Shown: positions 793 through 16,273 of the stretch, in pieces
How the letters are laid out: every line of letters starts with the position of its first letter
Position numbering within the stretch: the first letter of the stretch is position 1
Origin: a virus
Taxonomy: Duplodnaviria > Heunggongvirae > Uroviricota > Caudoviricetes
Direction: 5' to 3' (one strand)
Virus record (IMG/VR): IMGVR_UViG_2802429239_000001
Coordinates: 1-16,273 of that record
Length of the DNA stretch: 16,273 nucleotides
The notes under the pieces: generated by a model
What the model was told of the DNA's origin: nothing
The model's database searches: none
The model's input: the letters and a program-made list of their open reading frames with translations, nothing else
Position numbers and translations under genes: made by a program

Positions 793-801
793 AGCCCGGC
801 G
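781..801 (+). terminator. Hairpin between convergent genes, likely intrinsic terminator for the NTase gene
   Basis: Perfect 8-bp GC-rich inverted repeat CGCCGGGC / GCCCGGCG with 5-nt loop, followed on the plus strand by TGATTTATT. It lies between the NTase stop (790..792) and the stop of the minus-strand gene (806..808). Confidence 0.4.
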
Positions 802-805
802 TGAT

Positions 806-3421: not shown

Positions 3422-3423
3422 AA

Positions 3424-4071: not shown

Positions 4072-5164
4072 TCGTGACGTCTATCGCGGTGCATTCCGCC
4101 CACTCATGCGCCTGCAAAATACGTTTTGTAGGCATATTCAGCGCAACGTCATAGACACCATCGACTTGTAACACTTTGATTATCTGGTTTGGCACAATGT
4201 CCCGTCCCAGATGTTTCTGCCGCTGTTGCGTCCAGAGGCTAATCGCTTTACGCGCCGCAGCCAGCGTTGTCTCCTGATCGGCAGTGGTAAACAGTGTGAG
4301 CTGCGCACGGATTTCATACGGCACCCTAACGGCGCATTTCGCACTTACTTTGTCGGTCAGCGGACGTTTTTTCTCCTTGCTAACCTCCAGTTCAATTTGC
4401 GCGAGCAGTTCCACGCCCGGCAGACCATTCAGCGTTAGCGGGTAGATCTCCACGCAGCCTTCTGGCAATCCTTCGTCCGGCCCCAGTACCGCGACGTCAA
4501 TAATCGACTGGCTTACGGAAAGCGTATGAAAGCGGTAGGCACCATAGCTGCCCGCATTGCTGAAACTTTCCGGCGCCAGTTGGATCCGCTGGCGTAGTGC
4601 GTCATCACTCTCTTCACCGCAGCCGCCGGTTGAGGCCGTCAGGTTGGTCACGCTGATATCGTAATAACCAATCCTGTCAACAAGGGCGCTAATCTGTGCA
4701 GGCTGCCAGCCATTGCCCGCTTCGCCTGTTGCCAGACTGGTGGCGGGAACGGCGATATGCAAACTTCCCGCCGGAATCAGAACATCTTCATCGGTAGCAA
4801 ACATCACGCTGTCAGAGGCGCTGGCACGTGTTCCTTGTGGAATTAGAATGTTATTTCGATTCTTACTGGCTACCGAAAACAGCAACGTGGTTTTTGCCGG
4901 TTGTGCAGGTAAGCGGTGAACGCCCACCAGCTCACCTAAATAATCCAGCATTGGCGCGCGGGAATACGCGACCAGATTCTGTTTCGCCGCTTCCTGAATG
5001 GCGATGCGTACAAGGTTTTCACGATAGGCAAAAAGGTCAATCAGCAACCGCTCGGCCTGTGCCGGGTAGAGCTTTTTGCCGCTGGCATCTTCATACTGCG
5101 CAATCATCTCGCTGGTAATTTGCGCAGGATCGCGGTCAATAAAATCGGGTTCGGCTATCGCCAT
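4049..5164 (-). CDS. Baseplate assembly protein J (gpJ-like)
   Basis: 371 aa with gpJ-type segments (LRQRIQLAPESFSNAGSYGAYRFHTLSVSQ..., ...GRDIVPNQIIKVLQVDGVYDV...). Overlaps the gpW-like gene upstream and the gpI-like gene downstream. Confidence 0.85.
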   Translation of the reverse strand: MAIAEPDFIDRDPAQITSEMIAQYEDASGKKLYPAQAERLLIDLFAYRENLVRIAIQEAAKQNLVAYSRAPMLDYLGELVGVHRLPAQPAKTTLLFSVASKNRNNILIPQGTRASASDSVMFATDEDVLIPAGSLHIAVPATSLATGEAGNGWQPAQISALVDRIGYYDISVTNLTASTGGCGEESDDALRQRIQLAPESFSNAGSYGAYRFHTLSVSQSIIDVAVLGPDEGLPEGCVEIYPLTLNGLPGVELLAQIELEVSKEKKRPLTDKVSAKCAVRVPYEIRAQLTLFTTADQETTLAAARKAISLWTQQRQKHLGRDIVPNQIIKVLQVDGVYDVALNMPTKRILQAHEWAECTAIDVTIAGVSDG

Positions 5165-5514
5165 AACACCTCCGTTGAGTTGATTACGCCGTCAGCGGCG
5201 CGCCATTGCACACGTAACGTCAGATGTTCCCCGTCGATTACCGGTGTCACCTTCAGCAACCGGCAGCGCGGTTCCCACTGGCGGATGGCCTCTACCGACT
5301 CCCTTACCACATGCGGAATCGCCCGCTCGATGGGATAATCGATGTAGTGCCACAAGTTGCTGCCAAACAGCGGTCTGTGGGGATCACTGCCGCGCGGTGT
5401 GCGCAGAATGATGTGTATTGCCTGGTGAATATCATCCAGTCCGCAGACGTATTCTTCAGGCCGCTGCAAGGCTGGTTGCCAGTGCAGCGTAGAGGGGCGT
5501 GTTGTCGTGTTCAT
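5155..5514 (-). CDS. Baseplate wedge protein, gpW / gp25-like
   Basis: 119 aa; segment LDDIHQAIHIILRTPRGSDPHRPLFGSNLWHYIDYP matches the gpW/gp25 core (cf. P2 W LEHISQSIGDILRTPVGSRVMRRDYGSLLASMIDQP from memory). Confidence 0.8.
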   Translation of the reverse strand: MNTTTRPSTLHWQPALQRPEEYVCGLDDIHQAIHIILRTPRGSDPHRPLFGSNLWHYIDYPIERAIPHVVRESVEAIRQWEPRCRLLKVTPVIDGEHLTLRVQWRAADGVINSTEVLWR

Positions 5515-5575
5515 GAGGGTATTTTCGCCCTGAACAGGCGGCGGGGATATTAAAGCGATTTAAAAAACTGATTGA

Positions 5576-5607
5576 TTAAAAAGAGAAAACCCGCCATCAG
5601 GCGGGTT
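5576..5607 (-). terminator. Intrinsic-terminator-like hairpin plus U-tract between the gpV and gpW genes
   Basis: On the minus-strand transcript, just after the gpV stop (5613..5615): AACCCGCC-UGAU-GGCGGGUU (8-bp GC-rich stem, 4-nt loop) followed directly by UUCUCUUUUU. Confidence 0.55.
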
Positions 5608-5612
5608 AAACG

Positions 5613-6314
5613 TCAGTGTGAATGGTGGTTGGAGTTGCCACCGCTGTCCTGCAATGTGCCGCTGGCCTGAACGTTACCAATCACATTAACATTGCCAGTT
5701 ATCGTGGCGGCGTTGCCGATGCCTCCACTTCCTGCCATGCCACCAAGCCAGGTGAGTTTTTTCATCACCGTGACGTTGCCGGTAAAGGTGCTCATGGGCG
5801 CATCTACCGTCACTGCTGCCGCTTTAACATCGACCTTACTGGCTTCAATGCTGACATCGGTGGCTTTCACATCAACAGTGTCGGAAGTCACGGTGACGTG
5901 TTGGGCTTTAACCTCAACGTTGGGCGATGTCAGGCTGGTACGGTCAATAACCTCAATCACGATTTTTTCGATGCCACCATTAATCGTAAGCTGGTGGGTG
6001 CTGCGGTCATATTCAAACGCTGCGCCATCAGAAAACTGGACATAGCGTTTGTCGCGCGATGCTACTGGCGCGGTATCTACCGTTGAATATACTGCGCCCA
6101 GCACCACGCCATCTTCACCGTTATCATCCAGCAGAACTTCCACCTGTTCGCCCATATCCGGTAGCCAGTAATCCTTATTGTCCTGAGAATTGCGCTGCAG
6201 CACCGCAAGCCAGTTACTCTTCAGATTGTCACACTCTGGTAGCGTGACCCGCACCCGAACGCTGGTTTCGTCAATATCGCTGATAATCCCCGTTTGCCGG
6301 GTTACTCCTTTCAT
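5613..6314 (-). CDS. Baseplate spike/assembly protein V (gpV-like)
   Basis: 233 aa. N-terminal OB-like region with a GEQV motif and the FxDGAxxEYD segment parallels P2 gpV; a repetitive V.V.-rich beta-helix-like section follows; C-terminus ends in a His cluster (NHHSH). Confidence 0.85.
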   Translation of the reverse strand: MKGVTRQTGIISDIDETSVRVRVTLPECDNLKSNWLAVLQRNSQDNKDYWLPDMGEQVEVLLDDNGEDGVVLGAVYSTVDTAPVASRDKRYVQFSDGAAFEYDRSTHQLTINGGIEKIVIEVIDRTSLTSPNVEVKAQHVTVTSDTVDVKATDVSIEASKVDVKAAAVTVDAPMSTFTGNVTVMKKLTWLGGMAGSGGIGNAATITGNVNVIGNVQASGTLQDSGGNSNHHSH

Positions 6315-6323
6315 ATTGCCTCC

Positions 6324-7364
6324 TTACTGGCTGGTCGCTGGCCCGCGTGAAACGTCGATTTCAGTGGTATAGCCGCTGCGCACAAAACTGTGAGTAGATT
6401 TATCAATCAGCCACTGACCGGAAAGCACACCAAAATCGGTTAGCTCGATTTTATTGCCTGCCGTCAGTTCCGGGCAGCCCATCATCCTGAGCGTTCCGGT
6501 TTGTTGATATTCGTTGTGGCTGTCGAGCGCGGCGTTGGCCTTTGCCTGTGCCGCGCCAACGTCCGGCGCCCGACTGTTCAGTTTCAGCGTGTCGGCACTG
6601 GTGCCGACTCCACGGGCAGACGGCTTTTGCTGGCTGTCGTGAGTGTAGATAACCAGTTCTTTTTTCTTACTATTTTGATGCTGTACGGTGGCGTTTTTGT
6701 AGATGCGGTTAATGGTATCTTTGAAGGTGAAATGCGAAACGTCTTTGCGGTCGATCTTTTTCACCGGCGCCAGGCAGCGCAGCGTGGGTAAATGCGAAAA
6801 AATCAGTTCTTTGGTGGTCACCTTTACCGCATAGCCATATTCGCTGGCCAGGCGCTTGAGAAATCCGACATCGGTTTCGCCGTACTGTGTCACCCGGTCA
6901 ATCGTCAGCGGCTCGATTTTGCCCACCAGCGTCAGGCCGTGAGTTTGCGCGATACGGCTGGCGATGGCTGAAAGCGTTGTCTCTTCAAAGCCCTGACTGT
7001 TACGGGTGCGCAGCGCCTGATTGACGGAAGTGGCGATGCCATCAATATTTACCGTGGAAGGTGGTGCTGAAATGTCAATTTTATCAATGATATATTGACC
7101 ACAATCGAGCAGTTTTTCCCCCTGATAACCCATATGTAGCGCCAGCGTATCGCCTTTGCCGGGATACCACTCTTTTATCCAGCGTCCATCGGTGTCATCC
7201 AGTGTGATCGCGATGGTATCCGACTCGTTTTTAATACTGTCCTGGTAACTGATGCTGGTGACATAAGGCGTGATGTCATAAGTGATATCTTTATGCCCAT
7301 ACCACAGGGTAAAAATGGGCGCGAGCGTGGCAAAGACGCCGCCAGTTACGCTTATCTCAGCCAT
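6324..7364 (-). CDS. Tail/baseplate hub protein, gpD-like (Mu gp44-like)
   Basis: 346 aa, in the gpD position immediately upstream of the gpV gene; overall pattern (ITLDDTDG..., tail ...GQWLIDKSTHSF...GYTTEIDV) is consistent with the phage late control gene D family. Confidence 0.8.
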   Translation of the reverse strand: MAEISVTGGVFATLAPIFTLWYGHKDITYDITPYVTSISYQDSIKNESDTIAITLDDTDGRWIKEWYPGKGDTLALHMGYQGEKLLDCGQYIIDKIDISAPPSTVNIDGIATSVNQALRTRNSQGFEETTLSAIASRIAQTHGLTLVGKIEPLTIDRVTQYGETDVGFLKRLASEYGYAVKVTTKELIFSHLPTLRCLAPVKKIDRKDVSHFTFKDTINRIYKNATVQHQNSKKKELVIYTHDSQQKPSARGVGTSADTLKLNSRAPDVGAAQAKANAALDSHNEYQQTGTLRMMGCPELTAGNKIELTDFGVLSGQWLIDKSTHSFVRSGYTTEIDVSRGPATSQ

Positions 7365-7561
7365 GGTGGGATCTCCGATACGGTCTTGTTGACGGTAATG
7401 ACCGGAATAATGAGCTGAATACCGGCAGGCAGTACCGGGTAAATGGCGACATGTGGATTGGCGGCGATAATGCGTTCATAAGCCAGTGCATCACCGTAGT
7501 AATGCCATGCCAGGTTATCCCAGCGTTCGCCGTCGGTGGTGATATGTTCAAGGTATCGCAT
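7352..7561 (-). CDS. Tail protein X (gpX-like, LysM-like fold)
   Basis: 69 aa; GERWDNLAWHYYGDALAYERIIAANPHVAIYPVLPAGIQLIIP parallels P2 gpX (GDTLDAICVRYYGRTEGVVETVLAANPGLAELGAVLPHGTAVELP, from memory). Confidence 0.75.
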   Translation of the reverse strand: MRYLEHITTDGERWDNLAWHYYGDALAYERIIAANPHVAIYPVLPAGIQLIIPVITVNKTVSEIPPWLR

Positions 7562-8514
7562 TACCAGCTCCTCGTAATGGTCGCGGCAGCGAGCTGAGTC
7601 ACTGCGGGAGTGGTTTGCTGTACCGTTGTACGCGCCTGCTCAACCAACGTTGTGGCTTTATCGAAAGTTGCTTCGGCGATGGCGCTGGTGATGCTGCCAA
7701 ACAGTTCTTGTGCATGGTCAACCAGTGTCCCGGCGTCTTTGGCGCAGTCGCGGATACCCGGCAGGCTACCCAGCAATGCTTTAATCTGCGCCGACAACGC
7801 TTTTGGTAATCCTGCCAGCGTTTGCAGATCCATCGGCTGTTTAAACAGGGTTTCGATGGCATCGATAGTCTTTTTCAACGACTTAATTATCTTTTCACAC
7901 TTTTCTTTTAACGCTTTGGCCTCTTTAATCAGTGCTTTGACCTTTGCCACTGTTTTTTTAATATCTTCAATGGATTGCGCCAGTTCATCGAGCATCTCTT
8001 TGGCTTTGCGCATACCTTCTTCAATGGCGTTCAATATCTGATCCAACCAGGACTCCACCTTGTCCGGAAAATCGCTCGCCTTTTCGTCAATATTAGGCTC
8101 CTGGGTGGTAATCGCCGGGGGCAGGAGTGGGTTTTTCGGATCGCCGGTATACTCCTGGAGCGACATTGTTCCGCTTTGGGCAATCACATTGCCCCAGGGA
8201 TCGGTGTGCTGGTGAGTGGCGGTTAACTCTGTAATTACAAACCAGCCGCGATAATCACCGTTGCCAAACACCAGCGCCATTGCTTTGTGGGCAAGCATGG
8301 CTTCACGCAGTCGATTCAGCTCTGTTGTGGGTTGGCAAAACTGGCTGTGCAGGAAAAATTCCAGCGCCAGCATGTCCAGCTTATCGCCAATAAACTGCAC
8401 GCCAGGTTTGCCTTCAATACGGGCATGTGTGGCGTAATCCACGCCCATTGTGCTTTTAAAGCCATCCCAGAATGTGACAACTTTAAATTCAATCTCACCT
8501 AAAACGGCATACAT
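7561..8514 (-). CDS. gpU-like tail protein with long C-terminal coiled-coil extension (Mu gp43 / DNA-circulation-N-like)
   Basis: 317 aa. The N-terminal ~130 aa follow the gpU pattern (MYAVLGEIEF..., FGNGDYRGWFVITELTATHQ). The C-terminal ~150 aa are K/E/A-rich heptad-like helix (EEGMRKAKEMLDELAQSIEDIKKTVAKVKALIKEAKALKEKCEKIIKSLKKTIDAIE). Start overlaps the tape measure stop by 1 nt. Confidence 0.7.
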   Translation of the reverse strand: MYAVLGEIEFKVVTFWDGFKSTMGVDYATHARIEGKPGVQFIGDKLDMLALEFFLHSQFCQPTTELNRLREAMLAHKAMALVFGNGDYRGWFVITELTATHQHTDPWGNVIAQSGTMSLQEYTGDPKNPLLPPAITTQEPNIDEKASDFPDKVESWLDQILNAIEEGMRKAKEMLDELAQSIEDIKKTVAKVKALIKEAKALKEKCEKIIKSLKKTIDAIETLFKQPMDLQTLAGLPKALSAQIKALLGSLPGIRDCAKDAGTLVDHAQELFGSITSAIAEATFDKATTLVEQARTTVQQTTPAVTQLAAATITRSW

Positions 8515-10874
8515 CAGGCATACCCCCGGCGCTGTTGCTGCGCCATTACGTCGTTAATCATTCTTTCCAGTTCGCGTTTACTCATCGTCAATACGTTCTG
8601 AATGTCTTTAGTGGTGTTTTGTCCGTTACCCTGCACGGTAATTTGTGGCGAAAAATTCACCTGGACTTTTCCTGGGGAACGGGAGGGTAGCGTCGCCGGT
8701 TTGGTTACGGATTTACCTGGTAAAGAGGCCGACGCGGGTTTTGCCACTGGCGCCGATGACGGCGTTGTCGTTTTGCTGGATGGCGCGAGTTGTTTGCCCA
8801 CAGGCGGCGTTAAAAGCGCACCGGCAACGCCTGGAACAACGGTCGCGGGGGAGACTGATGCGGTATTAGTCGTGCCTGTAACAGTCGCAGCCGATGCTTC
8901 TGTGCCGATCCCCATTGTGGCTTTTAGCCAGTCTGGCATGGCGTTTTTGACCTGATCAATAATGCCTTTCAGAGCGGGGAAAGCATTCATTATGCCGTCG
9001 GCCAGGCTACCCAGTATATTGCTGCCGAACTCGCTAAAACTCGCAGGCATCTCAACACCAAACCAATTCATCACACCGGAAAAGGCGCTGTAGAACAGCC
9101 CCAGTGGCGACCAGTCGAGAATCAACCGGCTAATACCTGCAATGCCACCGTCAAAGGCCGTGGTAATACGTTTCCAGATGGCGGAAAAGAACCTGGTGAT
9201 AGGTTCCCAGTTGCGATAAATCAGATAAGCCGCGCCCGCAATCGCAGTGATGACCAGACCAATGGGATTCATCAGTAGCACCCGGCCTAGTGAGAGAACG
9301 GTCCGACCAACCAGTTTCAATGCTCCGCTCAGGCCACGACCAAGCAGTTGCGTTAGCCATTTTGCGCCGCCACCCAATGACTTAACCGCCGATAGCACCT
9401 TACTCGCTGCGCCTCCGGGCGCCAGACTTGCCCTGACTTTCAGGAAGATATCGACCAGACGAATAAACGGCGAGGCGATGAAGTTCGCGCCCAGCTTTAA
9501 AACATTCAGCGCACCGTTAAACAGCCAAATCGCCCCGACGATTTTCGCAATGTTTTGCACTAGTGCCGGGTGTTCGCGTAGCCAGGCGCTGAACTGGCGA
9601 ATAACCGGCGCAAGGCTTTGCGCCAGCTCGCCAATCGCCGGCATAAGCTGCAAGCCAATGCTGAGCCATAAATCATTTAACGCCAGTTGTAACGCTTTAG
9701 TCTGTTCAATGGGCGAAGCCATTTGCGCAGAAAAGTCGGCATCAATCAGATTCTTGCTGGTGGCTTGCATGGCAGAGGCTTTTAGCTGGCGATACTCTTC
9801 CATATTCGCCAGCATAGGGGCCAGGAATTCCACCGTTTGCGCATCGCCGAACATTTCGCCCAGATTAAACTGCGTCACCATCGATTGCAGCGCAGTGCTG
9901 CGGGCAGATAAATCTTCAATCTGCATGGTGCGTTTGAAGGTATCGAGGATCGCCGGATTCATCTTCTCAAGCTGCATTTGCACGATATGAGTCATAGCTT
10001 CGCTAACACCCATACCGTTTTGCTGATGCTCAAGCAGAGAACCTTGCAGATCGACGCCCTGGCTGGCGAACCAGCTATCGGTTTTTTTCGAAAAGGTGGT
10101 TTGTAGAAAATGGTCGAAATTCTCCGCCGCTGCACTGGCGCTGGCACCGTTTTTCATGGCGATCTGCATGGTGGCGGTCAGTTCAGCCATACCTTCCAGA
10201 CCCTGAGCGCCGGTTTTACCTGCAAATTTCTCTATCCACTGCGTTTGTTCGGCAATGGCAGGCCCACCGCTTTTGGTAACGCTGTACATCATGTTTTGCG
10301 CAGTGTGGAAATTTTCCGGGGCAATATTCAGTCGATCATGAGTCGCGAGCGCGGCTTTCGCCCATGTTTCGGCGCTGTCGCGCGTGGCGGTGGCGGCTTT
10401 GGCGATCTCCGGCATATAGCGGTTGAGATCCTGCAAGGACGATATGTTGCCTTCAACTAAGGTCAGAGCGGCGGACTGTAACGTGGTCTGCTGCTGGTTA
10501 AAATCCATACTCCAGTCGCGCAGATTCAGGCTGAGCGTCTCGCGAGTGGCATCACTCATCCCACCTTTGGTCGCCATATTGACCATATTGTCCTGAAACT
10601 CATACGGCAACTTCCAGTCGGGGGCTTCAACATTGAATACTTTGCTAAATTGCCCGGCAAATGTTTGGGTTTTCTCCATCAGATTAGCGCGGCTGCGGCT
10701 ATTTTCCTCCAGGCGGAGAGCGGAATCGGCAAGTCGCTGCGTTAGTTTGATAACTGTCGCTTGCTGAGTAGAGAGAGTTAACAATGTTCTGGCGTTGAGT
10801 GAGCCGTAACGGGCTATTGCCTGCGTCAACGTCTCATTACGCGCCTGAAGCTGGGTAATAATATCGTTGGCCAA
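8514..10874 (-). CDS. Tail tape measure protein
   Basis: 786 aa, the largest ORF, located between the chaperone and gpU-like genes. Helical N-terminal half, hydrophobic/Gly-rich central segments and a Pro/Ser/Thr/Ala-rich low-complexity C-terminal region. Apparent TTG start with GAGA-type RBS upstream; the real start could be internal. Confidence 0.85.
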   Translation of the reverse strand: MANDIITQLQARNETLTQAIARYGSLNARTLLTLSTQQATVIKLTQRLADSALRLEENSRSRANLMEKTQTFAGQFSKVFNVEAPDWKLPYEFQDNMVNMATKGGMSDATRETLSLNLRDWSMDFNQQQTTLQSAALTLVEGNISSLQDLNRYMPEIAKAATATRDSAETWAKAALATHDRLNIAPENFHTAQNMMYSVTKSGGPAIAEQTQWIEKFAGKTGAQGLEGMAELTATMQIAMKNGASASAAAENFDHFLQTTFSKKTDSWFASQGVDLQGSLLEHQQNGMGVSEAMTHIVQMQLEKMNPAILDTFKRTMQIEDLSARSTALQSMVTQFNLGEMFGDAQTVEFLAPMLANMEEYRQLKASAMQATSKNLIDADFSAQMASPIEQTKALQLALNDLWLSIGLQLMPAIGELAQSLAPVIRQFSAWLREHPALVQNIAKIVGAIWLFNGALNVLKLGANFIASPFIRLVDIFLKVRASLAPGGAASKVLSAVKSLGGGAKWLTQLLGRGLSGALKLVGRTVLSLGRVLLMNPIGLVITAIAGAAYLIYRNWEPITRFFSAIWKRITTAFDGGIAGISRLILDWSPLGLFYSAFSGVMNWFGVEMPASFSEFGSNILGSLADGIMNAFPALKGIIDQVKNAMPDWLKATMGIGTEASAATVTGTTNTASVSPATVVPGVAGALLTPPVGKQLAPSSKTTTPSSAPVAKPASASLPGKSVTKPATLPSRSPGKVQVNFSPQITVQGNGQNTTKDIQNVLTMSKRELERMINDVMAQQQRRGYA

Positions 10875-10965
10875 AATTGTTTCTCTTTAAATATTGATAA
10901 TGGCCCGCTGGTTATTTTTCTAAAAAAAAGGGGCAGGGAAGAAATAAACCTGACGGGCTTGGGAA

Positions 10966-10990
10966 ACTCGCAGACATCAGGTCTGCGAGT
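10966..10990 (-). other. Perfect 10-bp inverted repeat (stem-loop) in the chaperone-tape measure intergenic gap
   Basis: ACTCGCAGAC-ATCAG-GTCTGCGAGT on the plus strand (10-bp stem, 5-nt loop). Not followed by a clean U-tract on either strand. Confidence 0.6.
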
Positions 10991-11064
10991 CATATTCGAT
11001 TTTTATTTGGGCGTTGGCTTCATCCAGCCAGTTGCTAAAGTCATCGACGGTAAGGGCGTCTATC

Positions 11065-11382
11065 TCACTGGGCGGAAAGCGAAACCATCTCGCCAGTAAC
11101 GCCATCGCTTGCCATAACAGTGGCGGATTCTGTAGCCACGCTAAGCATGGATTGAAATCGTTTCTGCAATGCCTGGTAATCCAGCAAATCCATTTCAGCT
11201 AAATCTTCTGGCACCAGTCCGGTCATTGCAGCCATTAGCGGTTCATCCCATTCTTCTGGTTTTTCGCTGATCCGGCGCGCGTTGCGCATATCTTTTACTT
11301 TCAGGCGACGTAATTGCAGAGTGTTAATTACGTCTCCCGCCGCTGAAGTAAACGGGAACTGTAAGGTATAATGTTCTTTCAT
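11065..11382 (-). CDS. Tail assembly chaperone (P2 gpE / Mu gp41-like)
   Basis: 105-aa acidic protein encoded between the tube and tape measure genes, the conserved position of the gpG/gpE-type chaperone. Good RBS context. Confidence 0.65.
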   Translation of the reverse strand: MKEHYTLQFPFTSAAGDVINTLQLRRLKVKDMRNARRISEKPEEWDEPLMAAMTGLVPEDLAEMDLLDYQALQKRFQSMLSVATESATVMASDGVTGEMVSLSAQ

Positions 11383-11409
11383 TTTGTATCCTTATTGGTC
11401 ATGCGGAAA

Positions 11410-11427
11410 TCGGGGCCGTAGCCCCGA
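11410..11427 (-). other. GC-rich stem-loop directly after the tail tube gene
   Basis: TCGGGGC-CGTA-GCCCCGA (7-bp stem, 4-nt loop) in the 50-bp gap between the tube stop and the chaperone start; followed on the minus strand by only a short UUUCC. Confidence 0.45.
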
Positions 11428-11432
11428 ATAAC

Positions 11433-11957
11433 TTAGCCACCGATGTTATTGCGATAGGTACTTAATTGATCCACGCCGTTAACGCGGAAAATATTCGCCA
11501 GGTAATCCAGTTCCAGCAGCGTTTCACCATCGACCACCTGTTTAATATAGGTACAACCAAAGGCGCTGCTGAATTCCGGGTTTTCATTCTGTTTAAATGT
11601 TCCCAATGGATTCTTTTTAAACATGACAGTCAAATGAGTGACTAACGCTAATTGATTCGCTTTCCCCTGGGAGTTATAGCAATCAATACTGGAGCGGCAC
11701 TGTAATGCTACCGCCTGCCACGGGTTTGCCGTTTTACGCATGACGTCCTGATAAAAGGAGTTCCATTTAATTTCCCCTTCCAGTTTATCGAAACCTGCCG
11801 GGAGTTCGATTTTGCCGACCATGCCCAGTGCTTTATGCTCCTGCATAATTAAACTGACATCCGGTAATTTAATTTCGGTTGCACGACCTAAAAGGTTATT
11901 ACCATCGAGATAAATATTGGCATTGGTAATACGGTTAATTTGAATTTTTCCAGCCAT
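11433..11957 (-). CDS. Tail tube protein (P2 FII / Mu M-like)
   Basis: 174 aa. N-terminal pattern and the C-terminal NGVDQLSTYRNNIGG parallel the P2 FII C-terminus (..NGVDRLEQHRRNIGL, from memory). Start overlaps the sheath stop by 1 nt. Confidence 0.85.
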   Translation of the reverse strand: MAGKIQINRITNANIYLDGNNLLGRATEIKLPDVSLIMQEHKALGMVGKIELPAGFDKLEGEIKWNSFYQDVMRKTANPWQAVALQCRSSIDCYNSQGKANQLALVTHLTVMFKKNPLGTFKQNENPEFSSAFGCTYIKQVVDGETLLELDYLANIFRVNGVDQLSTYRNNIGG

Positions 11958-13387
11958 TAGCTATTGCTCTCCAGAGAGACTAAATATTCAGAGGTAATTT
12001 CAGTTTCAAACGTCAGACGTTCCAGCGGCGGTGGCGGGGTGAATTTATAGCTCAGCAATAAATGCCCGGCACTGAGTTCGGTCGGTGAATTTCGCGCCGG
12101 ATCGTACCAGCACTCAAAGCCAAGCAGTGCGCCGTCGGCAATCAGCTTACGGCCCCAGGTATTTACCGACTCGGTCAGGGCATCAATTAGCGCCTGATTA
12201 ATCGGCATATCGATATACTGCTGGCTGAAATAACGGATCGACTCGTTAATCACATCACCCGTGCGGCGAACGTTTTCAAAGTTACGCATATGGGTCACGG
12301 TTGGCCATGCCGCAGTGCGGTTGCCCCATAAACGCAGACCAGAGCCGTAACTATTGAAAACTGTGGTAATGCCGTTTTCGTTGAGCTGATTCACTTCACT
12401 TTGCGGGTCATCAACCATTGCGGAAAGTGAACGTTCGATACCGATAATGCCCTGAATTTCCTGGTTTGAGTTGCTCCACCAGAAACCTTTCTCCAGGTCT
12501 ACTTTGGCACGCAGTCCGGCAGCGCGTGAAGATAGCGGTTCGAGAACTTCTTGGTTGGTTGAGCCGTCATAAACTTTGACGTGCGGATAGCACAAACGCG
12601 CACGGTCAGAACTGGTGTTGAAGTTGATTGCGCCTTTCGAGCCGCGACCAGCCAGTACCTGCTGGAATGTAGTACCGATTGGGGCGTCAATGTAGGCGAT
12701 AGCACCGAGTTTTTCCGCCTGAGCAATCAGTTCGGTGGTGACCGATTTTTGCGTACAGAAAACGGGAGCAAGCAGGATTTTGGCGTAGAAACCATACAGG
12801 TTATAGGTATCCTGTAGCAGTTTCATCCCCGTGCGATCGCCTGCGGTATTAACGGCGCCAATAATATCGGCTGCGGTAACTTTTGTTGGATCGGCCCATG
12901 AGTAATAGGCGCAAACTTTCGCTCCGGCAGGGATCTCAGTTTCTGCACGAGTGATTATTCCTGTTTGTTCATCAACATGAAACGCTGCGCTGCTATACGT
13001 AGTGGCTGATGTTGAAGAGGGTTTCAGGACGACATTGCGCACCGCACGATGAGCCAGTTTTGCCTGGTTGTTGGAATCAAAAGTGATACTCTCATTGCTG
13101 ATGCTGGAGCCATGTTTTGCCGGATCCAGTACGTTAATCACCACCACCGTACCGGCGCCGTGGTCATAAATCGCCTTCAGCGCCTGCGGGATAGTAAAGT
13201 TAGCCTGAGTCGAGCCAAACTGCGCGGCATCGCTTTCAGAAAGGCACAATGTTGGTTTGTTTACCGGACCGCATGGTGCACTACCGATTAAAGCGATTAC
13301 AGCGGATTTTACCGCTTTAACCGGGCGCGGACCGGTTTCAATTTCAATGGTTTCTACACCGTGCAGGTAATTAGCTGCCATGTACAA
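11957..13387 (-). CDS. Contractile tail sheath protein
   Basis: 476 aa, immediately upstream of the tube gene; size, position and N-terminal region (..GVETIEIETGPRPVKAVKSAVIALIGSAP..) are typical of Mu L / P2 FI-type sheath proteins. Confidence 0.85.
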   Translation of the reverse strand: MYMAANYLHGVETIEIETGPRPVKAVKSAVIALIGSAPCGPVNKPTLCLSESDAAQFGSTQANFTIPQALKAIYDHGAGTVVVINVLDPAKHGSSISNESITFDSNNQAKLAHRAVRNVVLKPSSTSATTYSSAAFHVDEQTGIITRAETEIPAGAKVCAYYSWADPTKVTAADIIGAVNTAGDRTGMKLLQDTYNLYGFYAKILLAPVFCTQKSVTTELIAQAEKLGAIAYIDAPIGTTFQQVLAGRGSKGAINFNTSSDRARLCYPHVKVYDGSTNQEVLEPLSSRAAGLRAKVDLEKGFWWSNSNQEIQGIIGIERSLSAMVDDPQSEVNQLNENGITTVFNSYGSGLRLWGNRTAAWPTVTHMRNFENVRRTGDVINESIRYFSQQYIDMPINQALIDALTESVNTWGRKLIADGALLGFECWYDPARNSPTELSAGHLLLSYKFTPPPPLERLTFETEITSEYLVSLESNS

Positions 13388-13568
13388 TTTCCTCTCCGTT
13401 ATTTTGTTCTTCCTGAGTGATGACAGGAGTCAGGTGATTGCGGGCAATCATGGTCATAACCCACTCGTTTTCTTCTGGCAGATCAATTTCACTGTTCGGC
13501 CACAATAAGATTTCTTGTCCGTCGGCAAGGGTGACGCCGCTTGCCGGGCCGTTGTAGATGTATTTCAT
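13371..13568 (-). CDS. Small conserved tail-operon protein, function unknown
   Basis: 65-aa ORF coupled by overlap to both neighbours, in the position of the small protein that precedes the sheath gene in Mu-like tail operons. Confidence 0.45.
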   Translation of the reverse strand: MKYIYNGPASGVTLADGQEILLWPNSEIDLPEENEWVMTMIARNHLTPVITQEEQNNGEEIVHGS

Positions 13569-14020
13569 TCAGTTTCCTCGTAATTAACTTCAGTAAGCAG
13601 GGTAAGGTCCGTGCTTTCCCGTTTTGCGATAAACAGCGATCTGGTCGCCATTTCCATGATGTAGCGGCAGAAACCACCGCTCTCGCCTGCATTGATTTCT
13701 GTTTCAAGCCAAAGAAGACGCTCGCAATCAGGAAGCTGGATCCCCCCCAATGCGCTGCGTATGCGATCCAGTGCGTTTAACGCGCCACAATTTTTGCCAA
13801 CAATAACGGTGGCAGTTAAACGGAGCGTTTGCTGTTGCACGAGGGCATCACTGCTTTCAGGCATGGCAAATAGAGAACCGCTATAATTAATAATCACTGT
13901 AACTTGCTGCGTCTGCGGAATATATTTATTGGCATCAACCGATGAAATAAATACGTCCATTTCGGGATTCTGTTCACGTAATCTGGTCACAACAGAATTA
14001 ATTACAGATAAAATTTCCAT
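13565..14020 (-). CDS. Putative tail completion/terminator-type protein, first gene of the tail operon (positional call)
   Basis: 151-aa ORF with an AAGGAA RBS about 9 nt upstream of the ATG; 4-nt overlap with the next gene. Contains a C7/G7 homopolymer at 13742..13748. Confidence 0.4.
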   Translation of the reverse strand: MEILSVINSVVTRLREQNPEMDVFISSVDANKYIPQTQQVTVIINYSGSLFAMPESSDALVQQQTLRLTATVIVGKNCGALNALDRIRSALGGIQLPDCERLLWLETEINAGESGGFCRYIMEMATRSLFIAKRESTDLTLLTEVNYEETE

Positions 14021-14126
14021 ATAGGGTGTTCCTTAATTACTGCTCACTTCGTTATCGTTGAAATGTATTCTGAAGCAGTGAAGGTGAAGAATCTTTTAAT
14101 GTGATTTAGAGAAAAAATTGAATGGC

Positions 14127-14162
14127 TATAAAAATCCCCACACTTACGTAAAGGTGGGGATG
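14127..14162 (-). terminator. Intrinsic-terminator-like hairpin after the lysis cassette
   Basis: On the minus-strand transcript, a few nt after the stop of the 104-aa gene: AUCCCCAC-(12-nt loop)-GUGGGGAU followed by UUUUUAUAG. Coordinates approximate to 1-2 nt. Confidence 0.5.
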
Positions 14163-14165
14163 TAT

Positions 14166-14480
14166 TTAATAGCTGCCACGTTGTAATAGCTCTATTTTGC
14201 TATATAAGGCATCCAGCTTTGCTTCTAATACTGCCTGGCCACGAAGATAATCTTCTCTGCGGACATAATGCAGCGGAAGCTCGGCACGAAATTCGAGAAA
14301 TTCTCTTTCCAGTTTCGACCAGCTTGTTTCTGATTCCCGGCGCGCGTTTTCCAGAGATTCAAAACGCTCATTAAGTCTTTTTTCAATTTGCGCTAACAGC
14401 AATTTTCCGGCAGCAAACATTAATCCAACGAAGGAAAGCATAAGGGAGATCACTTCCCAAAAATCGATACTGAGTTTCAT
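14166..14480 (-). CDS. Membrane-anchored coiled-coil protein, probable lysis accessory (i-spanin-like or releasin-like)
   Basis: 104 aa with one N-terminal transmembrane helix (VISLMLSFVGLMFAAGKLLLA) followed by a charged helical region; strong RBS (AGAGGGG); directly downstream of the transglycosylase gene. Confidence 0.5.
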   Translation of the reverse strand: MKLSIDFWEVISLMLSFVGLMFAAGKLLLAQIEKRLNERFESLENARRESETSWSKLEREFLEFRAELPLHYVRREDYLRGQAVLEAKLDALYSKIELLQRGSY

Positions 14481-14492
14481 CGGCCCCTCTGA

Positions 14493-15098
14493 TTAGTGAA
14501 GACAGCTTGCCTGCCCCCAGAGTAAGTAGCGGGCGGCATGTTGATAGAGGATCATCTTCGGATAGTGACGATTTTCTCGCCAGTTTGCGGCACTACGCCC
14601 GGCGTTGACGTGCTCAACATGACCAAACCAGATGGTGGCATCTAACCCTTTGGATGCGGCCAGTTTTTTATCCCGATTAACCCATCCCTGACCACCGTTA
14701 TAGGCGCTTAGGGTAAACGCCATACGCTGGCAGCCATTTTTCGCCGAGATGTTTTTCCACAAATGCTGGTCATATTGCACCAATGCGCGAATCGCCCAGG
14801 TTGGGTTATAGGGCTTGTTTTCACGTAGCTGTGGATACAACTGGCTTATCCATGTCGCTGTGGCAGGCATAAATTGCGCCATACCCTGTGCGCCGACGGG
14901 GGAACGCGCCATTGGCTGCCAGGCTGATTCCTGGTGCAACTGCCCGGCGAAGTCTGCCACCGGGGCGTTCAGTCCCCAGACTTCTCGTGCAGTTCGAATC
15001 AGTTCGTTTCGCCATGCCAGAGATGCTCGCGGCGGTTCAGATGCGTTAAGCGGGAAGAACGCGAACAGAGTAATTAGCGCGAGAAATTTTACCTGCAT
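14493..15098 (-). CDS. Soluble lytic transglycosylase (SLT domain) with signal peptide; probable endolysin
   Basis: SLT-type motifs ESAW, GAQGMAQFMP and SAYNGG. The track ORF extends to 15197, but the internal Met (MQVKFLALITLFAFFPLNA) starts a signal peptide and has an AGGA RBS, so the likely start is 15098. It lies 2 nt downstream of the holin-like gene stop. Confidence 0.8.
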   Translation of the reverse strand: MQVKFLALITLFAFFPLNASEPPRASLAWRNELIRTAREVWGLNAPVADFAGQLHQESAWQPMARSPVGAQGMAQFMPATATWISQLYPQLRENKPYNPTWAIRALVQYDQHLWKNISAKNGCQRMAFTLSAYNGGQGWVNRDKKLAASKGLDATIWFGHVEHVNAGRSAANWRENRHYPKMILYQHAARYLLWGQASCLH

Positions 15099-15100
15099 CA

Positions 15101-15388
15101 CTAAAGTCCTAACGCGACGGAAAGGCAGACGGCTGCAACGATGATAGCCCGACGAATCATTGCCGCCGCGCAGCATCGCGCCTCTTCCCAGGGGCAAAAT
15201 GAGTCAGGCCGCGCCCAGGGAAACAGACTGCGATCGAGCCAGTATCCCAGCACAGCGGCGAGCGAAACCAGACTTAGTTTATAAATGACAACCGGGATCT
15301 GTGCGGAAGATGTCCAGCCGATCGCGACAAACAGCGCGACGGAAGCGACCAGCCAGCCGGAAAGACGGGGAAAAGTGACTTTTTTCAT
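15101..15388 (-). CDS. Small multi-pass membrane protein, putative holin
   Basis: 95 aa with 2-3 predicted hydrophobic helices; strong RBS (AGGAGA 7 nt upstream); first gene of the lysis cassette directly upstream of the transglycosylase. Confidence 0.5.
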   Translation of the reverse strand: MKKVTFPRLSGWLVASVALFVAIGWTSSAQIPVVIYKLSLVSLAAVLGYWLDRSLFPWARPDSFCPWEEARCCAAAMIRRAIIVAAVCLSVALGL

Positions 15389-15684
15389 ACGATATCTCCT
15401 GATAAGTGAGCGTTTAGTGTTGCCAGATCCCTCCAGTGAAGAATGAAAAAAGCTTTAATAAATAACTTTAAAAAATAGATCCTCTATAAATGAACATGCT
15501 TGCTAATAAATCCACCCATTAATAAAAGAGCAAAAGGTGTCCTGGAGAATAAGCGCGTCATTATGCAGGGAAAAGAGGATGGTGAATCGTAGGAATAGCC
15601 CATAGTCATTTGATTTTTAAAGTTTGTTTAAGAAAGTCAGCGACTGTGAGGGAAACGATCTTTTTACACTACAGGTAAAAATAA

Positions 15685-15704
15685 TACTGTATGCACATAC
15701 AGTA
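15685..15704. promoter_or_regulatory. LexA operator (SOS box)
   Basis: TACTGTATGCACATACAGTA is a perfect palindrome with CTGT-N8-ACAG, differing from the 20-mer consensus TACTGTATATATATACAGTA only in the central positions. Confidence 0.7.
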
Positions 15705-15713
15705 TCGTGTAAA
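15686..15713 (-). promoter_or_regulatory. Candidate leftward sigma70 promoter overlapping the LexA box
   Basis: On the minus strand: TTTACA (-35), 16-nt spacer, TACAGT (-10, inside the LexA box). Would transcribe toward the lysis and tail genes. Confidence 0.4.
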
Positions 15714-15725
15714 ATGATACTCCAG

Positions 15726-15756
15726 TTGACAAGAAACATAACGCAAACAATATATT
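15726..15756 (+). promoter_or_regulatory. Candidate rightward sigma70 promoter for the Mor/C-like activator gene
   Basis: Consensus -35 TTGACA, then 18-19 nt spacer to ATATAT/TATATT; about 20 bp downstream of the LexA box and about 170 bp upstream of the activator ATG. Confidence 0.4.
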
Positions 15757-15925
15757 TATTTTGTGAATTTATGACGTTCATTGATATTAAAAATTTATAT
15801 TTTTGGTGATTGTTTATTTGTTTGTTGAATGTATTGAGTAGCAGTAATGACAACTGCTTAGCGTATATCCGTGGTTTTACACGCATCGGGTCTTATACAG
15901 GATGCAAGATATATGGAGATGAAAA

Positions 15926-16273
15926 ATGATACGAAAATCAAAAGAGATGGCCCGGACACCGGAGATCATTAACGACCTGGCGTTTCATGCATCGCAAGTT
16001 CTGATTGAGAGCATCAATCTCGACAGTTCATCGGCGGAAAATGTGGGCTTTGCCATTGCCGACCGAATGATGCGTAACTGGGGTGGGCAAAGCATTTATT
16101 TCCCGAAAGGGATCTCCGGACGGGCGTCGGAGCGTGACTACCAAATCTATAGCGAGTGCGATGGTCGCAACTACGCCGAATTAGCGAAGAAATATAATCT
16201 GACGTTGCAATGGATTTATAAGATAGTGAAACGCGTACATGCGGAAAAGCAACAGCGCCGTAGTAATTCGTAA
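15926..16273 (+). CDS. Mor/C-family transcriptional activator (phage Mu middle/late activator family)
   Basis: 115 aa; GGQSIYFPKG...RDYQIYSECDGRNYAELAKKYNLTLQWIYKIVKR aligns with the Mu Mor C-terminal region (GGGQVYIPRG...RDLRIWNDFNGRNVSELTTRYGVTFNTVYKAIRR, from memory). GGAG RBS 8 nt upstream. Confidence 0.8.
   Translation: MIRKSKEMARTPEIINDLAFHASQVLIESINLDSSSAENVGFAIADRMMRNWGGQSIYFPKGISGRASERDYQIYSECDGRNYAELAKKYNLTLQWIYKIVKRVHAEKQQRRSNS

What the first reader, a model, noticed from the sequence alone, without database searches (positions are those of the whole stretch)
15680..15760. Near-consensus LexA box inside divergent promoters between the lysis/tail genes and the Mor-like activator
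The palindrome TACTGTATGCACATACAGTA overlaps the -10 (TACAGT) of a leftward promoter candidate with a TTTACA -35 at 16-nt spacing, which would put lysis and possibly tail transcription under direct SOS control. A consensus TTGACA -35 for the rightward activator gene lies only about 20 bp away. Direct LexA wiring differs from the PrtR/PrtN relay of pyocins and from Mu repressor c control.
Basis: seen in the sequence. Interest (0 to 1): 0.7.

Follow-up and report, generated by a model that had tools for sequence, protein, structure and literature searches.

The report
LexA operator gating a tailocin activator
A strongly conserved binding site for the DNA-damage repressor LexA lies between the lysis/tail genes and the Mor-type activator gene of a headless phage-tail cluster shared by Escherichia, Salmonella ('Def4') and relatives, so these particles are probably made as a direct branch of the SOS response, an expected but undescribed wiring.

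Summary
TACTGTATGCACATACAGTA lies at 15685-15704. It matches the LexA consensus at 17 of 20 positions, no shuffle reaches that, and its approximate heterology index (about 4) is in the range of recA and sulA. It is under selection. In 24 non-redundant orthologous holin-mor spacers from Escherichia, Salmonella, Dryocola, Phytobacter, Superficieibacter and IMG/VR, CTGT and ACAG never change, while 16 different 20-mers occur and the spacer averages 71% column identity.

Two equally conserved promoter candidates overlap the box. One runs leftward (TTTACA-16-TACAGT, 22/24). The other runs rightward toward mor (CTGTAT-17-TAAAAT, 21/24). The "consensus TTGACA" is confined to the Escherichia lineage.

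The lysis and tail operons carry their own activator-type promoter elements: a T-run, then a TTTAA-N6-TTAAA dyad, then a weak -10. Terminators separate these operons. In published Salmonella RNA-seq the mor homologue rises 4-fold with nalidixic acid, and no lysis or tail gene is in the induced list.

The most likely cascade is LexA ⊣ mor → Mor → late promoters. No element-encoded repressor is present. The closest characterised relative is Pectobacterium RdgA/RdgB (RdgB is 50% identical), with host LexA replacing RdgA. I rate this a new variant of a known kind, of moderate interest.

The parts
15685..15704 (.). LexA (SOS) box TACTGTATGCACATACAGTA
   Evidence: CTGT and ACAG are invariant in 24/24 orthologous spacers, and 16 distinct 20-mers occur.
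15686..15713 (-). Leftward promoter candidate P_L: -35 TTTACA (15713..15708), 16-nt spacer, -10 TACAGT (15691..15686). Predicted start is about 15679, 290 nt upstream of the holin ATG.
   Evidence: Predicted in 22/24 orthologues. The -7T is lost in L089, L090 and L091.
15687..15715 (+). Rightward promoter candidate P_R: -35 CTGTAT (15687-15692, inside the box), 17-nt spacer, -10 TAAAAT (15710-15715). Predicted start is about 15722, 204 nt upstream of the mor ATG.
   Evidence: Predicted in 21/24 orthologues. T15710 and T15715 are invariant.
15707..15716 (.). Conserved GTGTAAAATG next to the box. It reads as the -35 of P_L or the -10 of P_R.
   Evidence: 95% mean column identity. It is lost together with the box in the LexA-less lineage.
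15726..15753 (+). It is confined to the Escherichia lineage and does not overlap the box.
   Evidence: Present in 10/24 sequences; other genera have GTGAAG.
15616..15659 (+). Block iii: dyad TTTAAAGTTTGTTTAA (15616-15631), N22, then AACGAT (15654-15659), preceded by TTGATT. Candidate Mor-dependent promoter pointing through the LexA box toward mor (inferred positive feedback).
   Evidence: The dyad and the downstream GTGAGG..CGATCTTTTT are conserved in 19/24 sequences; the leftward flank is not.
15416..15476 (-). P_lys candidate late promoter: T-run plus TTTAAAGTTATTTATTAAA (15472..15454), 32 nt, then -10-like AACACT (15421..15416). The holin RBS and ATG follow 25 nt downstream.
   Evidence: 94% column identity; no chance match in 200 shuffles.
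15926..16273 (+). mor: Mor/C-family transcription activator, 115 aa
   Evidence: PF08765 E 7e-38; phrog_532 late transcriptional activator; Mu Mor 1RR7 E 5e-8; 50% identical to Pectobacterium RdgB.
14166..15388 (-). Lysis cassette: holin (15388..15101), SLT transglycosylase (15095..14493), 104-aa membrane/lipoprotein (14480..14166)
   Evidence: RefSeq annotation of E. coli A10.
14125..14161 (-). Hairpin plus U-run (intrinsic terminator) after the lysis cassette
   Evidence: -15.5 kcal/mol, z -3.97. Present in Salmonella, Phytobacter and Superficieibacter; deleted in E. coli A10.
14067..14118 (-). P_tail candidate late promoter: T-run, dyad TCTAAATCACATTAAA (14110..14095), N22, -10 CAGAAT (14072..14067), upstream of gp37 and the sheath/tube genes
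   Evidence: Alignment A4 of 7 taxa: ATTAAAAG and AATAC are invariant.
5521..5607 (-). Terminator (5607..5588), then P_W candidate: dyad TTTAAATCGCTTTAAT (5564..5549), N22, -10 GAAAAT (5526..5521), upstream of gpW/J/I/fibre
1868..14020 (-). Contractile-tail structural genes: Gp37, sheath, tube, chaperones, tape measure, X, D, V, W, J, I and fibre. No head, replication or integrase genes.

Best explanation
The palindrome is a functional operator for host LexA. LexA is the only repressor of a domesticated, headless contractile-tail cluster. The cluster resembles an R-type tailocin, corresponds to Salmonella 'Def4', and sits next to lysC. The operator lies in the shared core of two fully overlapping, oppositely oriented sigma-70 promoter candidates. 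The physiologically important output is the rightward one. While LexA is bound, transcription of the Mor-family activator gene stays low. After DNA damage, RecA-stimulated LexA self-cleavage frees the promoter and Mor accumulates. Mor then switches on at least three activator-dependent late promoters (P_lys, P_tail, P_W). These promoters lack a -35. They carry a T-run and a TTTAA-N6(9)-TTAAA dyad centred about 43 bp (P_tail, P_W) or about 54 bp (P_lys) upstream of the predicted start. A fourth copy of the element (block iii) points through the operator toward mor. It may add Mor positive feedback that LexA also blocks. Status of each step: shown here are the site, its strength, its selective conservation, the absence of another repressor gene, Mor-family membership and the conserved late-promoter elements. 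Inferred are LexA binding, which promoter fires, Mor acting on the dyads, the feedback loop and particle production.
For: Site quality and significance.

Selective conservation. The box is present at the same place in E. coli A10, Salmonella Infantis, Dryocola, Phytobacter, two Superficieibacter loci, and 22 of 25 close IMG/VR relatives. The CTGT and ACAG arms are 100% conserved. The box centre is 70% conserved and the whole spacer 71%.

Lineage specificity. No box occurs in about 125 more distant Mor loci, including Pectobacterium rdgAB.

Co-loss. The box and GTGTAAAATG are lost together in the Enterobacter-like lineage.

Rightward promoter. The box covers its -35 and spacer in 21/24 orthologues, and the invariant positions fit a -10 hexamer.

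Expression data. The mor homologue STM14_5073 is up 4.08-fold (49 to 204) with nalidixic acid in S. Typhimurium. That is similar to umuC (3.9) and sbmC (3.6) in the same data. No Def4 lysis or tail gene is in the up list (PMC8072944).

No other repressor gene in the cluster.

Activator and targets. Mor family membership. The late-promoter architecture parallels Mu Pm, which has no -35, a 16-bp dyad of 5-bp repeats with a 6-bp spacer centred at -43.5, and an A/T-rich proximal UP subsite (PMC4390567). The dyad pattern gives 4 hits against 0.69 expected, and 3 of the 4 lie in the roughly 1 kb of intergenic DNA.

Long-term maintenance. The cluster occupies the same chromosomal site next to lysC in five genera.
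Against: No transcription start, LexA-binding or ChIP data exist for this locus.

The rightward -35 (CTGTAT) is poor. By consensus match the leftward promoter is the better one (9/12).

In the Salmonella data 1091 genes are 'up' and the cultures differ in growth state, so a 4-fold change is weak evidence. Whether strain 14028 itself carries the box is inferred: all 5 loci that encode the most common Salmonella Mor allele carry it.

The published SOS-regulon screen did not list this gene.

If Mor rises 4-fold, the failure of tail genes to rise in that experiment needs an extra assumption, such as a threshold, H-NS silencing of the 33% GC spacer, or a defective Typhimurium copy.

In the Escherichia lineage a box-independent TTGACA promoter could give constitutive mor transcription.

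The -10 elements I assign to the late promoters are weak, and the P_lys geometry differs from P_tail and P_W.
Confidence: 0.6

Rival explanations
1. LexA mainly represses the leftward promoter TTTACA-16-TACAGT. On this model the holin/lysis cassette, and tail genes by read-through, are transcribed directly on SOS induction, and mor is driven separately.
For: It is the best consensus match of any promoter candidate at the box. The candidate is conserved in 22/24 orthologues, with TGT (= ACA of the -35) invariant. In L090/L091 the rightward -10 loses its -11A, while the leftward -35 keeps ACA. No terminator-like site was found between the box and the holin.
Against: The start would lie 290 nt from the holin, across a stretch that is not conserved in sequence or length (59% identity). 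The holin has its own highly conserved activator-type element 25-90 nt upstream. Terminators after the lysis cassette and after gene V would stop read-through into tail genes. No Def4 lysis or tail gene is in the nalidixic-acid-induced list, whereas mor is. The -7T of this -10 is lost in L089, L090 and L091. Lysis ahead of tail assembly would be self-defeating. The two-strand symmetry of any LexA box generates TACAGT/TACTGT -10 look-alikes on both strands.
Confidence: 0.2
2. LexA acts mainly as a downstream roadblock. The relevant promoter would be the Mor-dependent block iii element (dyad 15616-15631, -10 about 15654-15659, start about 15666). The box would sit at about +20 to +39 and gate a Mor auto-activation loop, while basal mor transcription comes from proximal promoters.
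For: Block iii has the same T-run, dyad, N22, nAnnAT geometry as P_tail and P_W. Its rightward flank is conserved and its leftward flank is not. Basal mor expression in Salmonella is appreciable (49 units).
Against: Block iii is absent or unrecognisable in Dryocola, Superficieibacter and L097, which still keep the box and GTGTAAAATG. Its -10 is weak, and the -11 position is G in Salmonella. The distance from block iii to the box varies by about 10 bp between genera. The model does not explain why GTGTAAAATG is conserved and lost together with the box.
Confidence: 0.12
3. The box is a non-functional relic or a chance palindrome, for example a leftover of an ancestral prophage antirepressor promoter.
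For: No experimental evidence of binding exists. The S. Typhimurium SOS-regulon study did not list the locus. One related lineage manages without the box.
Against: No shuffle in 200 gives such a match. The LexA-contact bases are invariant across 24 divergent spacers from at least 5 genera, while the non-contact centre changes freely (16 variants). A relic would decay at the spacer's background rate (59-71% identity).
Confidence: 0.05

Closest known systems
RecA-RdgA-RdgB circuit of Pectobacterium (controls pectin lyase and the Mu-type tailocin carotovoricin)
   Same: A Mor-family activator, 50% identical over 107 residues with a nearly identical C-terminal helix region, turns on late or tailocin genes after DNA damage. 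The tailocin cluster itself carries no repressor (PMC13566846).
   Different: In Pectobacterium the activator gene is preceded by rdgA, a 249-aa repressor with an HTH and an S24 peptidase domain (L027 2729-3478), and those loci have no LexA box. Here there is no rdgA-like gene, and a host LexA box occupies the mor control region.
Phage Mu early-middle-late cascade (repressor c, then Mor at Pm, then C at the late promoters)
   Same: The activator belongs to the Mor/C family (PF08765; 1RR7 E 5e-8). The target promoters appear to lack a -35 and to have a 16-bp dyad near -43 with an A/T-rich tract just upstream, as at Pm (PMC4390567).
   Different: There is a single activator tier instead of Mor followed by C. 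There is no c repressor, transposase or head genes. The half-sites are A/T-rich (TTTAA) rather than Mu's sequence. Host LexA provides the input.
R/F-pyocin control by PrtR/PrtN in Pseudomonas (and MpsR/MpsA/MpsH for maltocin)
   Same: A DNA-damage-induced tail-like particle cluster with its own lysis cassette and a dedicated positive regulator.
   Different: Pyocins use an element-encoded, RecA-cleavable repressor (PrtR) over an unrelated activator (PrtN) (summarised in PMC12297226). Here no such repressor exists and LexA is predicted to act directly.
Colicin operons, and LexA-controlled prophage antirepressor promoters (186 tum, Gifsy dinI-gfoA)
   Same: A host LexA box lies directly on the promoter of a mobile-element gene, so a lethal or lytic function becomes an SOS output (own knowledge; the Gifsy dinI homologues are listed as LexA-regulated in PMC8072944).
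   Different: Colicins typically have two overlapping boxes downstream of the -10 and regulate the toxin/lysis operon itself. The antirepressor systems still act through a phage repressor. Here a single box is predicted to control a transcription activator.
Salmonella prophage remnant Def4 (STM4196-STM4219; 'BTP6' in D23580)
   Same: This is the orthologous element, with the same genes and the same site next to lysC. S. Infantis carries AACTGTATATATATACAGTA 227 bp upstream of its mor.
   Different: The literature I could search treats Def4 only as a 20-kb remnant carrying gtrAB (PMC5322425; PMC3591323). I found no report of its regulation, of the LexA box, or of particle production.

Membership tests
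Gammaproteobacterial LexA (SOS) box | Palindrome CTGT-N8-ACAG, close to TACTGTATATATATACAGTA | tested here: met
   17/20 match at 15685-15704. It is the only CTGT-N8-ACAG in the window.
Gammaproteobacterial LexA (SOS) box | Heterology index in the range of sites that bind LexA (commonly taken as below about 12.6) | tested here: met
   About 3.9/4.5 with a matrix rebuilt from 25 remembered sites, so approximate. On the same matrix recA scores 5.3.
Gammaproteobacterial LexA (SOS) box | Overlaps core promoter elements of a regulated gene | tested here: inconclusive
   It overlaps two conserved predicted promoters, one on each strand. No mapped start site is available.
Gammaproteobacterial LexA (SOS) box | Contact bases conserved in orthologous regions | tested here: met
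   CTGT and ACAG are invariant in 24/24 sequences, with 16 sequence variants of the 20-mer.
Gammaproteobacterial LexA (SOS) box | LexA binding in vitro or in vivo | not testable with these tools
   Needs EMSA, footprinting or ChIP.
Gammaproteobacterial LexA (SOS) box | DNA-damage induction of the adjacent gene | tested here: inconclusive
   The Salmonella mor homologue rises 4.08-fold with nalidixic acid, in a data set with 1091 induced genes. Lysis and tail genes are not listed as induced (PMC8072944).
Mor/C family of phage transcription activators | Mor domain (PF08765) and homology to Mu Mor and Mu C | tested here: met
   PF08765 E 7e-38; 1RR7 Mor E 5e-8 and Mu C E 7e-5; phrog_532.
Mor/C family of phage transcription activators | Target promoters without a -35, with an imperfect dyad just upstream of the -35 position (16 bp, centred about -43.5 at Pm) | tested here: inconclusive
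   TTTAA-N6-TTAAA dyads lie 22 nt upstream of nAnnAT hexamers at P_tail, P_W and block iii, and are conserved across genera. Starts are predicted, not mapped, and P_lys has N9 spacing and sits one helical turn further upstream.
R-type tailocin (phage tail-like bacteriocin) | Complete contractile-tail gene set plus a lysis cassette | tested here: met
   Sheath, tube, tape measure, baseplate V/W/J/I, D, X, fibre, holin and SLT are present.
R-type tailocin (phage tail-like bacteriocin) | No head, packaging, replication or integration genes | tested here: met
   In E. coli A10 the cluster runs from the fibre-accessory genes to mor, between a nucleotidyltransferase gene and lysC. It occupies the same site in five genera.
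R-type tailocin (phage tail-like bacteriocin) | Released particles that kill related strains | not testable with these tools
   I found no report for this cluster in the searchable literature.
RdgA/RdgB-type SOS relay | Mor-like activator paired with an adjacent RecA-cleavable HTH-S24 repressor gene | tested here: not met
   The activator is homologous (50%). No repressor gene lies in or beside the cluster. In Pectobacterium rdgA lies 500 bp upstream of rdgB.
Colicin-type LexA control | Tandem overlapping LexA boxes just downstream of the -10 of the toxin/lysis operon | tested here: not met
   There is a single box. The next-best site in the window scores HI 11.6 and lies inside a coding region.

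The most novel reading that the evidence does not exclude
Host LexA is the sole repressor of a domesticated tailocin and sits at the centre of a compact bistable suicide switch. One operator would close two fully overlapping divergent promoters, in which the -10 of each is the -35 of the other. The same operator would also block a Mor-dependent positive-feedback promoter that reads through it. A transient drop in LexA would then be converted into all-or-none Mor accumulation, tail synthesis and lysis in a subset of cells. This would be the first tailocin wired directly to LexA through a Mor-family activator. It would also mean that the widespread 'Def4' remnant of Salmonella and its E. coli counterpart is an active SOS-induced weapon.
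Probability: 0.25. Interest if true: 0.65.

Novelty: new variant of a known kind. Interest (0 to 1): 0.47.

Why it matters
Natural tailocins of Escherichia and Salmonella are essentially unstudied. The Salmonella copy is catalogued only as the prophage remnant Def4. A LexA operator maintained across at least five genera, together with intact activator-type late promoters, argues that the element is a functioning SOS-induced system rather than debris. The locus is carried by 197 of 5426 complete E. coli genomes and by many Salmonella serovars. The result adds an overlooked member to the enterobacterial SOS regulon, since the 2021 Salmonella screen saw the induction but not the box. It gives a minimal, repressor-free design for damage-induced tailocin expression (LexA, then Mor, then late promoters). 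That design can be compared with RdgA/RdgB and PrtR/PrtN. It also predicts that quinolones and other SOS inducers trigger lysis and particle release in carrier strains.

Tried and rejected
1. Direction of the LexA-controlled promoter from conservation alone. A position-weight scan over 24 orthologues gave both strands nearly equal support. The exceptions (L089, L090, L091, Dryocola) do not discriminate cleanly.

2. Published start-site data. Kröger et al. 2012 and 2013 are not held. The D23580 supplementary tables are truncated before this part of the genome.

3. A list of predicted boxes in the supplement of PMC8072944. None is held.

4. Fetching S. Typhimurium DNA directly. Presence of the box in strain 14028 is therefore inferred from five loci with the identical Mor protein.

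5. The long ORFs across the spacer (15617..15886 minus strand, 89 aa; 15624..15809 plus strand, 61 aa; 15484..15609 minus strand, 41 aa). I rejected them as genes because they lie in or across non-conserved sequence.

6. A structured RNA in the spacer. There are no Rfam hits in the window.

7. Reading GTGTAAAATG as an extended -10 (TGn) or a CRP half-site. The register does not fit.

8. Inverted repeats flanking the box (15658-69/15707-18 and 15706-14/15875-83). They are specific to the Escherichia lineage and not conserved.

9. Fitting P_lys to the same dyad-N22 geometry as P_tail and P_W. It does not fit; P_lys has an N9 dyad about one helical turn further upstream.
Full report
**What is in the window**

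The window is a 16.3-kb headless contractile-tail cluster. On the minus strand it carries a lysis cassette: holin 15388..15101 (PF13272), SLT transglycosylase, and a 104-aa membrane/lipoprotein. Behind that come Gp37, sheath, tube, chaperones, tape measure, X, D, V, W, J, I and a tail fibre. On the plus strand, diverging across a 537-bp spacer of 33.5% GC (window 49.5%), is a 115-aa Mor-family gene at 15926-16273.

Homologous clusters at about 92-96% identity occur in 197 of 5426 complete E. coli genomes. All are chromosomal and lie between a nucleotidyltransferase/slipin pair and lysC. None has head, integrase, replication or repressor genes.

The Salmonella orthologue is the LT2 region STM4196-STM4219, known as prophage remnant Def4 (PMC5322425; PMC3591323). 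Dryocola, Phytobacter and Superficieibacter carry it at the same site next to an aspartokinase gene. The window is 99.8% identical over its last 3.3 kb to an IMG/VR contig (L080).

**Check of the observation**

TACTGTATGCACATACAGTA is at 15685-15704.
- It is the only CTGT-N8-ACAG in the window, against 0.13 expected.
- It matches the consensus palindrome with three mismatches, and none of 200 shuffles does so.
- It differs from the recA operator as I remember it (TACTGTATGAGCATACAGTA) at two central positions.
- An approximate heterology index is 3.9/4.5, computed from 25 remembered E. coli sites. On the same matrix recA scores 5.3, sulA 4.0, and the next site in the window 11.6.

The leftward TTTACA-16-TACAGT and the TTGACA at 15726-15731 are both present. 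The promoter scan finds fewer sites in this A/T-rich spacer than shuffles give (1 versus 2.4). Promoter likeness is therefore not evidence by itself.

**Is the box more than chance? Comparative evidence**

I collected Mor-homologue loci from one genome per species and from IMG/VR. A strong box (HI below 6) lies 220-310 bp upstream of mor in:
- E. coli A10;
- S. Infantis;
- Dryocola;
- Phytobacter;
- both Superficieibacter loci;
- 22 of 25 close IMG/VR relatives.

None of about 125 more distant Mor loci has one. These include Pectobacterium, Pseudomonas, Burkholderia and Pasteurellaceae.

In 24 non-redundant holin-mor spacers:
- the CTGT and ACAG arms are invariant;
- the four central bases are 70% conserved;
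- the whole spacer is 71% conserved;
- the stretch between the conserved blocks is 59% conserved;
- sixteen different 20-mers occur.

This is the signature of selection on the LexA contact bases.

An Enterobacter-like lineage (L098, L102, L103) has lost the box together with the adjacent GTGTAAAATG, while keeping the other conserved blocks. The box and GTGTAAAATG therefore behave as one promoter-operator module.

**Which promoter does the box control?**

The only other strongly conserved element near the box is GTGTAAAATG (15707-15716, 95% identity). It can be read in two ways:
- as the -10 (TAAAAT) of a rightward promoter, whose -35 (CTGTAT, 17-nt spacing) lies in the same arm.

A position-weight scan of all 24 orthologues finds these two as the most widely conserved predicted promoters in the spacer. 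The leftward one is found in 22/24 and the rightward one in 21/24. The two are fully overlapping and divergent, and one LexA dimer would close both.

Details pull in both directions:
- The leftward promoter has the better consensus match.
- Its -7T is lost in three lineages.
- T15715 and G15716, which are invariant, lie outside its -35 but inside or next to the rightward -10.
- The rightward -10 loses its -11A in L090/L091.

The "consensus TTGACA" is confined to the Escherichia lineage (10/24; GTGAAG elsewhere). It has a weak -10 and does not overlap the box.

**Surroundings that bear on the mechanism**

The holin is preceded at 25-90 nt by the most conserved block of the spacer, on the minus strand: ATTTTTTAAAGTTATTTATTAAAG. 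This block is 94% identical and has no chance match. It is followed by a conserved nA(T/C)ACT hexamer and then the RBS.

After the lysis cassette there is a hairpin with a U-run. Upstream of gp37 there is a second block, conserved in seven taxa (alignment A4). After gene V there is another terminator, followed by a third block upstream of W.

P_tail and P_W have identical geometry: a T-run, a 16-bp dyad (TCTAA-N6-TTAAA or TTTAA-N6-TTAAT), 22 nt, then CAGAAT or GAAAAT. The dyad pattern gives four hits in the window against 0.69 expected. Three of the four lie in the roughly 1 kb of intergenic DNA.

This geometry resembles Mu Pm. Pm has no -35, and a Mor dimer binds two 5-bp inverted repeats in a 16-bp element centred at -43.5, with an A/T-rich proximal UP subsite just upstream (PMC4390567; bioRxiv 10.1101/2025.05.02.651988). 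P_lys has an N9 dyad about one helical turn further upstream.

The lysis and tail operons thus look Mor-dependent and insulated from each other. That argues against their being driven by read-through from a LexA-controlled start 290 nt upstream of the holin.

A fourth dyad, block iii (15616-15631), has the same geometry (N22, then AACGAT). Its rightward flank is conserved and its leftward flank is not. It would start transcription about 20 nt upstream of the box, toward mor. This suggests, speculatively, a Mor auto-activation loop that LexA also blocks.

**Expression evidence from the literature**

PMC8072944 reports RNA-seq of S. Typhimurium 14028 with and without nalidixic acid. In its Dataset S1 the gene STM14_5073 rises 4.08-fold, from 49 to 204.5. 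This gene is on the plus strand at 4451529-4451876, is 348 nt long, and lies at the lysC end of Def4, so it is the mor homologue. None of STM14_5042-5072 appears in the induced list.

The gene is not among the 47 SOS genes of that paper's Table 1, so the box was overlooked. One possible reason is that a small ORF is annotated over it in Salmonella records.

Three caveats apply:
- 1091 genes are "induced" in that comparison.
- The stored file is truncated at its down-regulated end.
- Presence of the box in 14028 is inferred from five loci that encode the identical, most common Salmonella Mor protein.

**Best explanation**

The box is a functional LexA operator, with about 0.9 confidence. Its main role is to keep mor off until LexA is cleaved. 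Mor then activates P_lys, P_tail and P_W. My confidence in this cascade is 0.6.

The rivals are:
- direct LexA control of the lysis promoter as the main output (0.2);
- LexA as a roadblock on a Mor feedback promoter as the main mechanism (0.12);
- a non-functional relic (0.05).

**Comparison with known systems**

The protein belongs to the Mor/C family. Its closest characterised relative is Pectobacterium RdgB, at 50% identity. RdgB is the activator of pectin lyase and of the Mu-type tailocin carotovoricin. There the activator gene is preceded by rdgA, a repressor with an HTH and an S24 peptidase domain, and no LexA box is present. Here rdgA is absent and a host LexA box stands in its place.

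Pyocins use PrtR/PrtN and maltocin uses MpsR/MpsA/MpsH (PMC12297226). Direct LexA boxes are classical for colicins and for prophage antirepressor promoters (own knowledge). I found no paper in the searchable library that couples a tailocin with a LexA box, and none on the regulation of Def4.

**Verdict**

The finding is a real, selected SOS operator in an uncharacterised but widespread enterobacterial tailocin-like cluster. Its wiring (LexA, then a Mor-type activator, then late promoters, with no element-encoded repressor) is a new variant of a known kind. SOS control of tailocins is expected, so the surprise is moderate. The value lies in marking Def4-type clusters as probably active and in providing a minimal, testable circuit.

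Noticed in passing
window 14067-14118, 5521-5570, 15616-15659, 15416-15476: There is a recurring late-promoter-like architecture: a T-run, a TTTAA-N6-TTAAA dyad, 22 nt, then an nAnnAT hexamer. It sits upstream of gp37, upstream of gpW and, pointing the other way, upstream of the LexA box. The holin promoter has an N9 version one helical turn further upstream. These are likely the Mor-binding sites of this element.
   Followed up: partly
window 5509-5526: The predicted -10 of P_W (GAAAAT, 5526..5521) lies only 6 nt from the annotated ATG of gpW (5514). Either gpW is made from a leaderless mRNA or its real start codon is further downstream.
   Followed up: no
window 14125-14161 (minus strand); L001 18750-18866: A stable hairpin with a U-run follows the lysis cassette (-15.5 kcal/mol, z -4). 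It is present in Salmonella, Phytobacter and Superficieibacter but cleanly deleted in E. coli A10.
   Followed up: partly
L098, L102, L103 (IMG/VR; Mor most like the Enterobacter hormaechei protein P0008): This is a sister lineage with the same holin-mor arrangement, and it keeps the block ii and block iii elements. It has no LexA box and no GTGTAAAATG. Its input signal is unknown.
   Followed up: partly
L077 1-1300, L078 1-870 (Salmonella, serovar Stanley-type contigs): The whole tail cluster and the LexA box are replaced by a hexapeptide-repeat protein gene. An orphan mor is left next to lysC, with only about 150 bp of its original upstream region.
   Followed up: partly
L002-L005 4388-5758; L001 21028-22377; L076 6338-7687: The cluster sits at the same chromosomal site, with mor convergent with an aspartokinase (lysC) gene, in Escherichia, Salmonella, Dryocola, Phytobacter and Superficieibacter. 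This suggests old, vertically maintained domestication with patchy loss.
   Followed up: yes
Salmonella Typhimurium 14028 STM14_5073 (PMC8072944 Dataset S1): The mor homologue is induced 4.08-fold by nalidixic acid but is missing from the paper's list of 47 SOS genes. In the S. Infantis record a 43-aa hypothetical ORF (L076 5509-5640) is annotated across the LexA box, which may have hidden it from upstream-region searches.
   Followed up: partly
window 1-1863: There is cargo at the fibre end. An RlaP-type nucleotidyltransferase (1-792, PF10127) is paired with a slipin-family gene in E. coli A10. A 151-aa protein (806-1261) matches only the N-terminal part of PHROG 1128. A DUF4376 protein follows. 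The function of these genes and their relation to the tail cluster are unknown.
   Followed up: no
window 3796-3815: A weak LexA-like site, TCCTTTATATTTATGCAGCT (approximate HI 11.6), lies inside the gpI-like baseplate gene. It is probably chance.
   Followed up: no
window 15658-15669/15707-15718 and 15706-15714/15875-15883: Two inverted repeats built on TTTTACAC/GTGTAAAA bracket the LexA box and reach toward the mor RBS. They are confined to the Escherichia lineage.
   Followed up: partly
window 11433-11957: RefSeq annotates this gene as the major tail tube protein, but its best PHROG hit (phrog_55) is labelled 'head closure'. This looks like a label inconsistency in one of the two resources.
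   Followed up: no
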